64,000 nt of DNA. It comes from Octopus vulgaris. Its lineage: Eukaryota. This document shows positions 12,334 to 14,558 of this stretch, piece after piece. The DNA is taken from positions 9,362,001-9,426,000 of the forward strand of contig OX597835.1 of assembly GCA_951406725.2 (NCBI GenBank). Direction: 5' to 3'. Each line of letters opens with the position of its first letter. The first letter of the stretch is position 1. Made by a program: the position numbers.

Positions 12334-12397
<64 letters not shown>

Positions 12398-13000
12398 GGA
12401 GATGTACTTGCATAGCTAGTGACTTGAGCTGAGATCGTGTGCTGGAACGAAAACAATTGCAGTGTGGAAAGTGTTTATAGTCCATTTAAGAAAGACACAA
12501 AAACCGTTCGATTCACTTCAACATTTAAATTTAATTTGTCAAAATATTTTCGTCGCTTTGAGACGTGATGCAGCACGACGTTTTGTCAGTCAACAGGTCG
12601 CGGTCTCAAAGCGACGAAAATATTTTGACAAATTAAATTTAAATGTTGAAGTGAATCTAACGGTTTTTTGTGTGTTTCTTAAATGGCTTATGAACACCTT
12701 CCACGCTGCAATTGTTTATATATATATATATTATATAGAGGGCATTATTACACATAAATGCCTCACAATAAGAGGGACATAAGTCATTACTACCAATGAC
12801 ATAAGTCAGTAATGACATAAGTCATTACTTATGTCCCTCTTAGTGTGAGGCATTTATGTGTAATAATGTCCTCTATATATTATAAATTAATATGTTCAAA
12901 AGAAAAAAATTATTTTCAAATTTTTCTCTTATGAGGTTTTTCACGCTAACTACCTGATGATTTCTTGTTAGATTCCTTATTAAGAGTTATCCTTAATTGT

Positions 13001-13065
<65 letters not shown>

Positions 13066-14558
13066 TAGAGACAAAACCACTATTTTGCAAAACAAACAAG
13101 GAAAGACTTAATCAATACATAAAATTTTAATAAAAAGTTTAATAAAAAATACTTTTTATTAAACTTTTTATTAAAATTTTATGTATTGATTAAGTCTTTC
13201 CTTGTTTGTTTTGCAAAATAGTGGTTTTGTCTCTAATTAATATTTATATAATATTTTACTATAAAATTGGATTTAATCCTAAATCTGATTTTTTTCCCTG
13301 TAAATTTGGATTTATTCCCTAATATTTATTATATATATATATATATATGGGACATGATATCAAGTTTAAAGTAAAAACGAGAAGAGCTGAAACAGAGTTG
13401 TAGGGAATAGATAAGTCGACATACTTGCCTACAAGACAGAGGTGGAAAATCTTGTGTTTCTACGAATCTGATTTTATCATTTTGGAGCTTGAAGAAATTT
13501 TTATCTGAAAGTGAAAGTAAAAACAGCACGTAAATAAATAATAAATATTGAATTCCCGCGTGTTTAATGCGTTTGTGCTTTTCCTTTTTTTAACTTCTGT
13601 GAACTGTTTCATTGAACTTCCTCCGAAATGCATTATGGAATTAAAAGTATTATGCGTATCGCCACCCCCATGTATATTTTTAAATCTTTTAATAATTTCG
13701 CTCATTAAGCAGGTTAAATCGAGCAATAATGCAGATATAAGCCGAAAGCGGGAAGGAAGGTTGTTGTGCGGAAATAAATATTTGACATTTCGTTTGTCTA
13801 TTTGCTTTGCAACTTTCTTGGTGTGAAGTCGTGTGGTGAAAAAAACATTGTTGTATCTTTGGTGAACCCGTAGACCAAAAATAAACACACGCATTGCTTC
13901 AGTTTCATTTCTTTCCTATTTATTATTCGACATTTGATTAACTGTTCAACCAACTGAATAATCAATCGGTTAATCAATCAGTCAGTTGTGCTTGCCAATC
14001 TTCATTCATTCAGTAGTATTTGAAACAAATCTGAAGCCGACCTGGAATGGAGAGAGCATGTTTTACACAGGGTCGTGCGAGGTGTGGGACGAAATGACTG
14101 AGGCAAACATAACTGATCGTTTAATTAACCGGATGAGTAATCAAATAATCGATTCAAGCAATTGACGAATAATGAACAAAGAAGCGAAACTGAATCAGTG
14201 CGTGTTTATTGTTGGTGTAATGACCTCCAAGATATTTTAGAATATATTAACTTTGTCATTCCATATGATATTAAAGCTGCTTGGGTTGATTTTAAAGTTT
14301 AACATTAGCAGAGTTGTTTTCGTTCGTTTTCCTTGTATGTCTCCAATGAAATGTTTTTGTTCCTAACTGTGACCCTCCATAAACCCTAAATTTTATTTTA
14401 GAATTTATGTGAGCAACTGTCTTTGAAGGCTCATATTGTCGTTGAATGCTTGAAATGAGGAGTAGATAGACCGATTACTTCTACTTTCCATTTTCTCGTT
14501 GTTGACATATTTCATATCATGTGTACCGTTGGTGATGTCCTGTACATATATATGCATG

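What the first reader, a model, noticed from the sequence alone, without database searches (positions are those of the whole stretch)
12397..13330. Three unrelated fold-back elements stacked in one (TA)n tract: candidate PLE-derived hairpin-element system
Seen: within ~930 bp, three different long inverted repeats (114, 53 and 91-bp arms) plus other short inserts, bounded by (TA)n or TA-rich sequence. Similar objects occur at 4857, 28318, 53793 and 59614. Two have a one-sided unique extension and hammerhead-like sequence at the loop. Known: PLE insertions often carry an inverted, truncated pLTR. Inference: (TA)n acts as a landing pad for many families of tiny pLTR-only hairpin insertions that mimic MITEs but arise by reverse transcription with fold-back. 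If transcribed, they would be a source of long dsRNA, relevant to the heavy A-to-I editing of coleoids.
Basis: partly seen in the sequence, partly recalled or inferred. Interest (0 to 1): 0.75.

Follow-up and report, generated by a model that had tools for sequence, protein, structure and literature searches.

The report
Hairpin mini-transposons stacked in TA repeat
Three unrelated small DNA elements that fold back on themselves sit side by side in one TA-repeat tract of an octopus-type genome, and they look most like miniature cut-and-paste transposons that home to TA repeats, a habit well described in plants, rather than a new retroelement system.

Summary
The sequence observation is real. 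Window 12397-13330 holds three mutually unrelated palindromes: arms 114/115 nt (93% identical), 55 nt (93%) and 87 nt (100%). They are intact, not nested, and separated by (TA)n runs. Hairpins across the window sit beside (TA)n more often than chance allows (6 of 11; P about 0.006). The "hammerhead-like" claim fails: Rfam and a core-motif scan find no hammerhead. Nothing links the arms to Penelope-like elements (PLEs): the window has no PLE RT or GIY-YIG ORF. The "extension" next to hairpin C is an independent repeat that also occurs at 817-914. Hairpin B has symmetric TAGAG/CTCTA ends flanked by a perfect 9-bp direct repeat, which is a class II transposon signature.

The closest known systems are the TA-microsatellite-targeting foldback Mutator-like MITEs of plants (MuTAnT, SaTar, TAFT, Micron). 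These show foldback structure, 9-10 bp duplications at imperfect sites, and arrays of unrelated, non-nested elements.

The PLE model stays a live rival, mainly for hairpin A and for 4857. Each has a one-sided 54- or 48-nt extension and no duplication. Published PLE features fit this: (TA)n bias, an inverted copy and a one-sided tail.

Copy number, constancy of the internal sequence and autonomous partners could not be tested, because no eukaryotic genome was available. Verdict: probably a new (animal) member of a known kind; moderate interest.

The parts
12336..12396 (.). (TA)30 run, left border of the cluster
   Evidence: TRF, 30.5 copies, 100% matches
12397..12450 (.). 54-nt non-palindromic piece ('X') joined directly to the left arm of IR-A. 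It may be a PLE-type tail, a fused fragment of another element, or original flank.
   Evidence: Sequence. No copy elsewhere in the window. It stays outside the main hairpin in the fold.
12451..12717 (.). IR-A foldback: arms 12451-12564 and 12603-12717, loop 12565-12602. All 8 arm differences lie in the outer 60 columns. No target duplication at the left arm boundary.
   Evidence: Fisher p 0.006
12717..12731 (.). short (TA)n run between IR-A and IR-B
12727..12735 (+). left copy of the 9-bp direct repeat TATATTATA (candidate target-site duplication of IR-B)
   Evidence: This 9-mer is 1 of 2250 run-edge 9-mers elsewhere in the window.
12736..12875 (.). IR-B foldback element, 140 bp, ends TAGAG...CTCTA, arms 55 nt (51 of 55 identical), centre with short alternating sub-repeats
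12876..12884 (+). right copy of the 9-bp direct repeat TATATTATA
12885..13003 (.). 119-nt non-palindromic insert ('B_ext') between IR-B and the next (TA)n. It holds the only CTGANGA core of the hairpin loci but no hammerhead.
13004..13061 (.). (TA)29 run
13062..13239 (.). IR-C foldback, 178 bp, arms 87 of 87 identical, 4-nt loop. The inner ends also read TAGAG...CTCTA (13066/13235). The flanks are palindromic (ATTAAT), so the duplication length is ambiguous.
13245..13329 (+). short non-palindromic repeat ('C_ext'), homologous to 817-914. Both copies end on (AT)n on the right.
   Evidence: (z 7.5)
13330..13348 (.). (TA)9 run, right border of the cluster
817..914 (+). second copy of the C_ext family, lying between two (TA)n runs with no hairpin beside it
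4857..4968 (.). small hairpin (4857-4920) plus a 48-nt one-sided extension, bounded by (TA)n on both sides
28318..28391 (.). weak 22-nt-arm hairpin, 5 bp from a (TA)n run
59453..59749 (.). 157-nt unique piece plus hairpin 59610-59748 (arms 56 of 59 identical), bounded by (TA)n on both sides
53793..53973 (.). imperfect palindrome not associated with (TA)n, with a candidate 6-bp direct repeat CTAAGG a few bases outside its arms

Best explanation
The three hairpins are independent, non-autonomous class II (cut-and-paste) foldback elements. They are MITEs made almost entirely of two long terminal inverted repeats. Their transposases, supplied in trans from elsewhere in the genome, prefer (TA)n microsatellites or TA-rich DNA.

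Repeated hits on one tract produce a side-by-side, non-nested array of unrelated elements. Short non-palindromic inserts, either defective or other (TA)n-seeking elements, are fused between them.

IR-B is most likely of the Mutator/foldback type, because it has a 9-bp target duplication. The superfamily of IR-C and IR-A is open: TA, TTAA or 6-bp palindromic flanks are all possible.

Shown here: the structures, their non-nested stacking, the (TA)n association, and the IR-B duplication. Inferred: mobility, multi-copy status, a transposase partner, and superfamily.
For: 1. Foldback structure is far beyond chance.
2. IR-B has symmetric ends TAGAG/CTCTA flanked by a perfect 9-bp direct repeat, TATATTATA. 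The irregular TT sits in the same phase on both sides. That 9-mer is 1 of 2250 run-edge 9-mers elsewhere in the window and 7 of 63,992 window-wide.
3. IR-C's arms meet the same 5-nt end, TAGAG.
4. The hairpins are intact, non-nested and unrelated. SaTar MULEs are described in the same terms: arrays of unrelated elements in (TA)n, none interrupted, TIRs up to 250 bp in 380-1120 bp elements, 19-47% linked or fused (PMC5907723, sections 13 and 16 part 1).
5. MuTAnT is a 292-bp foldback with 144-bp TIRs in (TA)n. It shows 9-nt duplications at the 14 of 218 imperfect sites, and 25% of copies are defective (PMC4486113, sections 9 and 13).
6. (TA)n association: 6 of 11 hairpins, P 0.0055. This exceeds the 16.8% share of TA dinucleotides that lie inside runs.
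7. Equal arms with 4-38 nt loops occur in 3 of 3 hairpins. This is as expected for TIR-only MITEs.
8. A classical TA-flanked MITE (30240-30384) shows class II non-autonomous elements in this genome. The O. vulgaris repeat paper lists Tc1-mariner, hAT, Mutator, piggyBac and MITE families with recent insertions (PMC13282606 passages). A LINE fragment in the window is 97% identical over 20% of its length to an Octopus bimaculoides protein.
Against: - None of the three arms has a second copy in the 64-kb window, so multi-copy status is unshown.
- No transposase ORF was found in the window.
- The IR-B duplication lies in near-palindromic TA-rich DNA. Read as a continuation of the inverted repeat, it needs only 1 mismatch in 9, so it is good but not decisive evidence.
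- IR-A has no duplication at its left arm boundary. It carries a 54-nt one-sided piece, and 4857 and 59610 are similar. All 5 of 5 large (TA)n-associated hairpins have pure (TA)n on one side only, whereas simple insertion into the middle of a tract predicts both sides.
- IR-C's flanks fit several duplication lengths.
- The Mutator assignment rests on duplication length alone.
- Microsatellite-targeting foldback MITE arrays are documented for plants in the papers I read, not for animals.
Confidence: 0.5

Rival explanations
1. PLE-derived hairpins. A Penelope-like element's endonuclease nicks both strands in (TA)n and each nick primes reverse transcription of the same RNA, or the cDNA snaps back on itself. 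This gives two extremely 5'-truncated 3' ends in inverted orientation. Sometimes one side carries the extra 'tail' that results from two alternative RT start sites.
For: - Naiad PLEs commonly insert in (TA)n. PLE insertions often carry an adjacent inverted 5'-truncated copy and a 30-40 bp tail at one end only, and Naiads lack canonical hammerheads (PMC8557442 passages).
- A purified PLE protein cleaves and extends both strands and starts RT at two sites that define the tail (PMC11167929 passages).
- IR-A (54 nt) and 4857 (48 nt) have a one-sided extension, no duplication around the palindrome alone, and (TA)n at the unit borders.
- Penelope-like families with recent insertions are listed for O. 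vulgaris (PMC13282606 passages).
- A non-palindromic short repeat with a fixed right end on (AT)n and a variable left end (817-914 and 13245-13329) looks like a 5'-truncated retro-insert.
Against: - No hammerhead was found.
- No PLE RT or GIY-YIG ORF was found in 300 of 304 ORFs, and the arms show no similarity to anything else in the window.
- The extensions are 48-157 nt, not 30-40 nt.
- IR-C's extension is an independent family.
- IR-B's 9-bp duplication brackets the hairpin alone.
- Independent truncation of two cDNAs would not give equal arms in 3 of 3 cases. Only the snap-back variant would, and I saw no description of it in the passages read.
- In cephalopods Naiads, the clade that favours (TA)n, are reported as long-inactivated remnants (PMC8557442 passage), whereas IR-C's arms are 87 of 87 identical.
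Confidence: 0.17
2. Other microsatellite-seeking retroelements. The inserts are 5'-truncated LINE 3' ends or SINE-like RNAs mobilised by target-specific LINEs, or elements that bring their own (TA)n tail. The hairpin would be a feature of the RNA.
For: - 5 of 5 large hairpin units have pure (TA)n on one side only.
- The C_ext family has a fixed end on (AT)n and a variable other end.
- Dong-R4 LINEs are listed among the most recently active in O. vulgaris (PMC13282606 passages). That R4/Dong elements target microsatellites is recalled, not checked.
- The window's abundant SINE carries an internal (AC)n(AT)n, and one copy has a 180-bp insert there.
Against: - IR-B and IR-C end symmetrically, and IR-B has a 9-bp duplication at both ends.
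- No A/B-box tRNA-like head was detected: ARAGORN finds 0 genes, and Rfam finds nothing at gathering score.
- No poly(A) was seen.
- Perfect palindromy of a whole element is unusual for SINEs.
Confidence: 0.08
3. The palindromes are locally generated and not mobile. They arose from break repair or replication template-switching at a fragile (TA)n tract (fold-back priming, templated insertions) and are single-copy.
For: - No second copy of any arm in the window.
- IR-C is a perfect palindrome with a 4-nt loop, as fold-back synthesis would give.
- IR-A's arm differences are confined to the outer 60 columns, 8 versus 0, p 0.006. This is what template-switch correction of quasi-palindromes from the centre would produce (mechanism recalled).
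Against: - Fold-back priming on self-complementary (TA)n would put (TA)n at the centre of the palindrome and duplicate the local flank. Here (TA)n lies outside and the arms are foreign to the locus.
- Three unrelated arm sequences occur in one tract.
- IR-B has defined symmetric ends with a duplication.
- Similar objects occur at four other (TA)n sites.
Confidence: 0.08
4. Assembly artefact: the palindromes were created by the assembler or by chimeric reads in a low-complexity region.
For: IR-C is a perfect 87-nt-arm palindrome inside long (TA)n, a context that is hard to assemble.
Against: - IR-A and IR-B have substitutions and an indel between their arms, and structured loops.
- Five further hairpins occur in the window.
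- The sizes (140-320 bp) are unlike kb-scale read-chimera palindromes (recalled).
- No N or gap lies nearby; the window has no N.
Confidence: 0.03

Closest known systems
MuTAnT (Mutator-like (TA)n-targeting foldback MITEs, Medicago truncatula; PMC4486113, sections 9 and 13 read)
   Same: Small elements of about 200-300 bp made almost wholly of two long, near-identical TIRs that form a hairpin. They sit inside (TA)n and show a 9-nt target duplication only where the flank is imperfect, which is the situation at IR-B. Many copies are defective or one-armed.
   Different: This is a plant family with a known autonomous mudrA-type partner and 218 copies. Here there is no partner, no copy count and no sequence similarity. 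MuTAnT ends in G/C runs, while IR-B and IR-C end in TAGAG. The host here is an animal (octopus-type).
SaTar elements (satellite-targeted non-autonomous MULEs of guayule, rice, sorghum and citrus; PMC5907723, sections 13 and 16 part 1 read), with TAFT (maize) and Micron (rice) as cited there
   Same: Linear arrays of unrelated elements lie within one microsatellite, mostly (TA)n. No element interrupts another. TIRs reach 250 bp, part of the elements are fused directly to a neighbour, and flanks often do not fit a simple duplication.
   Different: SaTars are 380-1700 bp with 10-bp duplications. The octopus-type hairpins are 140-270 bp. MULE membership is untested here apart from one 9-bp duplication.
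PLE insertion architecture, especially Naiad PLEs (PMC8557442 passages; PMC11167929 passages)
   Same: (TA)n insertion bias, an inverted copy that gives an inverted-repeat structure, a one-sided short extension, and no canonical hammerhead in Naiads.
   Different: Described PLE units are kb-scale ORF-bearing or pLTR-bearing copies with unequal inverted parts. Here the hairpins are tiny, have equal arms and show no PLE sequence. The tail lengths do not match. One hairpin has a duplication plus symmetric ends.
TIR-only hairpin MITEs of Tc1/mariner origin (MADE1-type, source of the mir-548 family; recalled)
   Same: The whole element is essentially two TIRs that form a long hairpin. TA is the target, so TA-rich DNA is favoured. 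One such element lies in this window at 30240-30384, with a weak Rfam mir-548 match of 31.4 bits, below the gathering score of 90.
   Different: A TA duplication cannot be shown or excluded for IR-C. It does not fit IR-A's left boundary, and IR-B's flanks fit 9 bp better. No mariner-type end motif was seen in IR-A, IR-B or IR-C.

Membership tests
Microsatellite-targeting foldback MULE MITEs (MuTAnT / SaTar / TAFT / Micron type) | Long terminal inverted repeats that make the element a foldback hairpin | tested here: met
   Arms of 114/115, 55 and 87 nt; fold z = -23, -18 and -28
Microsatellite-targeting foldback MULE MITEs (MuTAnT / SaTar / TAFT / Micron type) | Insertion in (TA)n microsatellites | tested here: met
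   All three abut (TA)n runs. Window-wide, 6 of 11 hairpins lie within 12 bp of a run, P 0.0055.
Microsatellite-targeting foldback MULE MITEs (MuTAnT / SaTar / TAFT / Micron type) | 8-11 bp (typically 9-10 bp) target-site duplication where the flank is not a perfect repeat | tested here: inconclusive
   IR-B: perfect 9-bp TATATTATA on both sides, but the flank is near-palindromic. IR-C: only a palindromic 6-mer, so ambiguous. IR-A: none at the left arm boundary.
Microsatellite-targeting foldback MULE MITEs (MuTAnT / SaTar / TAFT / Micron type) | Modular arrays of unrelated elements, none interrupted by another | tested here: met
   Three intact, mutually unrelated hairpins plus at least one independent short repeat lie in one tract.
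Microsatellite-targeting foldback MULE MITEs (MuTAnT / SaTar / TAFT / Micron type) | Multi-copy family with constant internal sequence | not testable with these tools
   There are 0 further copies in the 64-kb window. No eukaryotic genome collection was on hand. ORF-translation searches found nothing.
Microsatellite-targeting foldback MULE MITEs (MuTAnT / SaTar / TAFT / Micron type) | TIR similarity to an autonomous element that encodes a mudrA-type transposase | not testable with these tools
   No transposase domain was found in 300 of 304 window ORFs. The rest of the genome was not available.
Penelope-like element (PLE) derived insertion | Sequence continuity with a PLE (RT plus GIY-YIG ORF, or its pLTR / 3' end) | tested here: not met
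   No RT or GIY-YIG hit in the window apart from a LINE-type zf-RVT at 7904-8458. The arms match nothing else in the window. A genome-wide test was not possible.
Penelope-like element (PLE) derived insertion | Hammerhead ribozyme motif in the pLTR (canonical PLEs; absent in Naiads) | tested here: not met
   Rfam at gathering score gave 0 matches. At E<=10, 0 hammerheads among 31 and 8 matches. The core-motif scan found none in the hairpins.
Penelope-like element (PLE) derived insertion | One-sided 30-40 bp tail belonging to the same element | tested here: inconclusive
   The extensions are 54 nt (IR-A), 48 nt (4857), 119 nt (IR-B, outside its duplication), 85 nt (IR-C, an independent repeat) and 157 nt (59610).
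Penelope-like element (PLE) derived insertion | Fixed outer (3') ends with variable inner truncation points among copies | not testable with these tools
   This needs other genomic copies.
Tc1/mariner-derived MITE | TA target-site duplication directly flanking the TIRs | tested here: inconclusive
   Possible for IR-C and IR-B because the flanks are TA-rich. Not met at IR-A's left boundary.
Hammerhead ribozyme (Rfam hammerhead families) | Match to the covariance model / conserved core with helices | tested here: not met
   (none among the 150 of 223 rows shown)

The most novel reading that the evidence does not exclude
The hairpins, at least IR-A and 4857, are a so far undescribed product of Penelope-like retrotransposition in a cephalopod. 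The endonuclease nicks both strands of (TA)n and double-primed or snap-back reverse transcription leaves tiny ORF-less inverted 3' ends, sometimes with the PLE 'tail'. This would seed many MITE-mimicking hairpin families that are ready-made long dsRNA sources. A second, milder novel reading is that an animal genome runs a SaTar-like microsatellite-homing, array-building transposition system that has so far been documented only in plants.
Probability: 0.17. Interest if true: 0.65.

Novelty: new member of a known kind. Interest (0 to 1): 0.36.

Why it matters
If these are (TA)n-homing foldback MITEs, microsatellite-targeted, array-building transposition is not a plant peculiarity. It would also operate in a cephalopod genome that is unusually rich in microsatellites and repeats. 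That gives a simple reason why (TA)n tracts there are broken up by unrelated hairpins, and it marks such tracts as 'safe havens' for insertions.

Each element is a 55-115 bp perfect or near-perfect duplex when transcribed. Elements lying in introns or UTRs would therefore be natural ADAR and small-RNA substrates. This can be tested with existing octopus RNA-seq data.

If the PLE reading were right instead, it would expose a new non-autonomous product of a poorly understood retrotransposition mechanism.

Tried and rejected
1. Hammerhead at the loops: rejected.
2. Other copies of the arms in the window: none. BLAST with words of 11 and 9 gave only two hits leaving the locus, a (TA)n match and C_ext versus 873-938.
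3. Weak homology among hairpins and extensions: none except C_ext versus 817-914.
4. PLE or transposase ORFs in the window. Of 458 stop-to-stop ORFs >=55 aa, I dropped 154 as low-entropy microsatellite translations and scanned 300 of the remaining 304. Only zf-RVT passed its cut-off.
5. Copy number estimated through spurious protein predictions. The 119-aa frame across IR-A found no protein: 2 candidates, none scored. The 121-aa frame across 53793 gave one weak hit (E 1.4e-4), outside the hairpin.
6. tRNA-like heads: ARAGORN found 0.
7. A recalled resemblance of the inner part of IR-A's arm to a Tc3-type transposon end. A literal search of a 12-nt window string in the paper library returned 13 papers. 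The 11 listed look unrelated by title; none was opened. The arm boundary is also not TA-flanked, so this lead was dropped.
8. hAT reading of the TAGAG ends (recalled end motif). IR-B's symmetric boundaries give 9 bp, not 8, and 8 bp needs asymmetric ends. This is left open, not adopted.
9. Fold-back priming on (TA)n itself: rejected on geometry, because (TA)n lies outside the palindromes and not at their centre.
10. The apparent palindrome at 55219-55466 (score 72) is TA/CA-rich low complexity on inspection.
11. Animal precedents for microsatellite-targeting foldback MITE arrays were searched. The listed TE papers concern plants, a fungus and Drosophila DINE-1. The arthropod MULE paper only cites MuTAnT (passages).

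The genome-contig collection holds only bacteria and archaea, so it was not used.
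Full report
**What is there**

Window 12336-13348 is a (TA)n tract broken into four runs: 12336-12396, 12717-12731, 13004-13061 and 13330-13348. Three insert blocks lie between the runs, and each block contains one long palindrome.
- IR-A has arms 12451-12564 and 12603-12717, with 107 of 115 aligned columns identical, and a 38-nt loop.
- IR-B is 12736-12875, with arms 51 of 55 identical and a 30-nt centre made of short alternating sub-repeats.
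- IR-C is 13062-13239, with arms 87 of 87 identical and a 4-nt loop.

As single strands they fold at -177, -89 and -121 kcal/mol. The z-scores are -23, -18 and -28, and none of 100-200 shuffles folds as well.

The three hairpins are unrelated to each other. They are also unrelated to the other hairpins in the window at the sensitivity of a shuffled-control local alignment. None has a second copy in the 64 kb.

Non-palindromic pieces sit beside each hairpin: 12397-12450 (54 nt, left of IR-A), 12885-13003 (119 nt, right of IR-B) and 13245-13329 (85 nt, right of IR-C).

**Is it more than chance?**

I masked microsatellites and ran a uniform scan, which found 11 inverted repeats in the window. Six lie within 12 bp of a pure (TA)>=5 run, or seven if IR-A's full gapped arms are used. 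Random placement gives a mean of 1.86, P = 0.0055.

(TA)>=5 runs cover 3.7% of the window and hold 16.8% of its TA dinucleotides. The enrichment therefore exceeds simple TA availability.

Of 28 inserts of 25-450 bp lying between neighbouring (TA)n runs, 5 carry a genuine large hairpin. A sixth high score, at 55219-55466, is low complexity. The rest are non-palindromic, so (TA)n collects more than hairpins.

The arm lengths, the (TA)n borders, the other loci and the one-sided extensions are all there.

The 'hammerhead-like' loops are not.
- Rfam finds nothing at gathering score in the window.
- It finds no hammerhead among 31 matches at E<=10 in 12300-13400, nor among 8 in 53650-54100.
- None appears among the 150 rows shown of 223 at E<=1 for the whole window.
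- The sub-threshold matches on the hairpins themselves are generic long-hairpin miRNA models.
- Only 1 of 29 CTGANGA cores falls in a hairpin locus. It is at 12954, in the non-palindromic 119-nt piece, with no GAAA within 80 nt.

**Host**

The window is AT-rich and full of microsatellites (143 TRF rows). It carries LINE fragments; one, at 7904-8458, has a zf-RVT domain. That fragment's best named relative is an Octopus bimaculoides protein, 97% identical over 20% of the query. The window also carries an abundant SINE with an internal (AC)n(AT)n.

**Evidence on mechanism from the sequence itself**

1. IR-B ends symmetrically in TAGAG...CTCTA. A perfect 9-bp direct repeat, TATATTATA, flanks it at 12727-12735 and 12876-12884, with the irregular TT in the same phase on both sides. 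Elsewhere in the window this 9-mer is 1 of 2250 9-mers at (TA)n run edges.
 - Caveat: the flank is nearly self-complementary. Read as a continuation of the inverted repeat, it would need only one mismatch in nine. I therefore rate it as good but not decisive evidence for a target-site duplication.
 - The duplication brackets the hairpin alone, so the 119-nt piece is not part of the IR-B unit.
2. IR-C's arms reach the same five end bases, TAGAG. Its flanks are palindromic (ATTAAT), so duplications of TA, TTAA or 6 bp are all possible.
3. The 85-nt piece next to IR-C is homologous to 817-914 (z 7.5; alignments). That copy lies between two (TA)n runs with no hairpin beside it. Both copies share their right end on (AT)n and differ on the left. 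This 'extension' is thus an independent (TA)n-seeking repeat, not a tail of IR-C.
4. IR-A is the odd one. The palindrome has no duplication at its left boundary, and the 54-nt piece joins it directly. Only the whole unit, 12397-12717, is bordered by (TA)n. The hairpins at 4857 (48-nt piece) and 59610 (157-nt piece) are built the same way. In all 5 of 5 large (TA)n-associated hairpins, pure (TA)n touches one side only.
5. All 8 differences between IR-A's arms lie in the outer 60 columns and none in the inner 55 (Fisher p 0.006). A single perfect palindrome ageing uniformly would not give this pattern. The family consensus may be imperfect in its outer part, or the centre may have been homogenised by template switching (mechanism recalled).
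6. No transposase, PLE RT or GIY-YIG ORF is in the window. I scanned 300 of 304 screened ORFs, having dropped 154 low-entropy ORFs beforehand.

**Comparison with what is known**

Two bodies of literature fit.

*Plant microsatellite-targeting foldback MULEs.*
- MuTAnT is a 292-bp foldback with 144-bp near-identical TIRs inside (TA)n. It has 9-nt duplications visible only at the 14 of 218 imperfect sites, and a quarter of copies are defective (PMC4486113, sections 9 and 13).
- SaTar elements are non-autonomous MULEs with TIRs up to 250 bp, mostly in (TA)n. [quoted passage not shown] Between 19 and 47% are linked or fused to a neighbour, and their flanks often do not fit a simple duplication (PMC5907723, abstract, sections 13 and 16 part 1).
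- This is the architecture of 12336-13348.

*PLE biology.*
- Naiad PLEs prefer (TA)n, have adjacent inverted 5'-truncated copies and a one-sided 30-40 bp tail, and lack canonical hammerheads (PMC8557442 passages).
- A purified PLE protein nicks and extends both strands and starts RT at two sites that define the tail (PMC11167929 passages).
[quoted passage not shown] That sits badly with IR-C's 87 of 87 identical arms.
- A 2026 preprint proposes pLTR-derived non-autonomous elements (retrozymes). Those are tandem and bear hammerheads, and the study concerns vertebrates (passages).

**Weighing**

For IR-B and IR-C the class II foldback-MITE reading explains everything seen: symmetric ends, equal arms, a short loop, the duplication at IR-B, (TA)n homing, and non-nested stacking. 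The PLE reading needs a snap-back variant that I did not find described.

For IR-A and 4857 the one-sided piece and the missing duplication fit the PLE picture at least as well as 'MITE fused to a fragment'. I cannot separate the two without other copies.

I put about 0.5 on class II foldback MITEs for the cluster as a whole. Within that, Mutator/foldback type is the best guess for IR-B, and the superfamily is open for the others. I put about 0.17 on PLE origin, about 0.08 on other microsatellite-seeking retroelements, about 0.08 on locally generated palindromes, and about 0.03 on assembly artefact. The remaining probability I leave unassigned.

**What stayed unchecked**

- Copy number, constancy of the loop and internal sequence, autonomous partners, empty orthologous sites, read-level support, transcription and editing were all unchecked.
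- The session offered no eukaryotic genome collection.
- Attempts to reach other copies through spurious protein predictions found nothing.
- I did not see the supplementary files with the cephalopod Naiad families (PMC8557442) or the SaTar and MuTAnT sequences.
- I found no paper describing microsatellite-targeting foldback MITE arrays in an animal in searches. That is a statement about those searches of this library only.

**Verdict**

This is a real and tidy structure. It is most likely an animal example of a kind of element and array already known from plants.

Noticed in passing
window 30240-30384: A 145-bp element with terminal inverted repeats of about 25-40 nt, a TA on each side and a unique 64-95 nt interior. 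It looks like a classical mariner-type MITE (the resemblance of its ends to MADE1/Hsmar1-type ends is recalled). Rfam gives a weak mir-548 match on both strands (31.4 bits, gathering score 90). It is not in a (TA)n run.
   Followed up: partly
window 29273-29700, 32600-33060, 50340-50990, 61090-61600 (also 10859-11014, 44270-44600, 56769-56947): An abundant repeat, apparently a tRNA-derived SINE on the minus strand, carries an internal (AC)n(AT)n microsatellite. Many (TA)n tracts of this window are therefore parts of a SINE. In the copy at 50340-50990 a non-palindromic insert of about 180 bp (50629-50808) sits exactly at that internal microsatellite.
   Followed up: partly
window 817-914 and 13245-13329: A short (85-98 bp) non-palindromic repeat family. 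Both copies lie in (TA)n, share the right end abutting (AT)n, and differ at the left end. This looks like a 5'-truncation series or defective one-armed copies.
   Followed up: partly
window 12451-12717: All 8 differences between IR-A's arms lie in the outer 60 of 115 columns (p 0.006). Either the inner 55 nt were homogenised or the element is composite. Unexplained.
   Followed up: partly
window 53793-53973 (flanks 53780-53990): An imperfect 181-bp palindrome far from any (TA)n run. The hexamer CTAAGG occurs on both sides a few bases outside the arms (a possible 6-bp duplication). There is a T-arm-like motif near the centre, with a weak Rfam tRNA-Sec match of 19.8 bits, while ARAGORN finds no tRNA. 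A fragment of another SINE family follows directly.
   Followed up: partly
window 6433-6771 (-) and 7904-8458 (+): LINE ORF2 C-terminal fragments. The second has a zf-RVT domain. Its relatives are 64-74% identical RT proteins from environmental or assembly sources, and one Octopus bimaculoides UniRef entry is 97% identical over 20% of the query. One relative is labelled as a Herbaspirillum MAG protein, which is probably eukaryotic contamination of that bin.
   Followed up: partly
window 46452-46498: (AAT)n meets (ATT)n head to head, giving a 47-nt microsatellite palindrome.
   Followed up: no
window 29708-29737 and 30078-30107: A pair of 30-nt inverted arms encloses a 340-bp cluster of (AC)n, (AT)n and (TG)n microsatellites.
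   Followed up: no
window 4014-4249, 54250-54484, 57164-57330, 62050-62221, 63170-63461 and others: A second dispersed SINE-like family of about 170-240 bp has at least eight copies or fragments in the window, several next to trinucleotide microsatellites.
   Followed up: no
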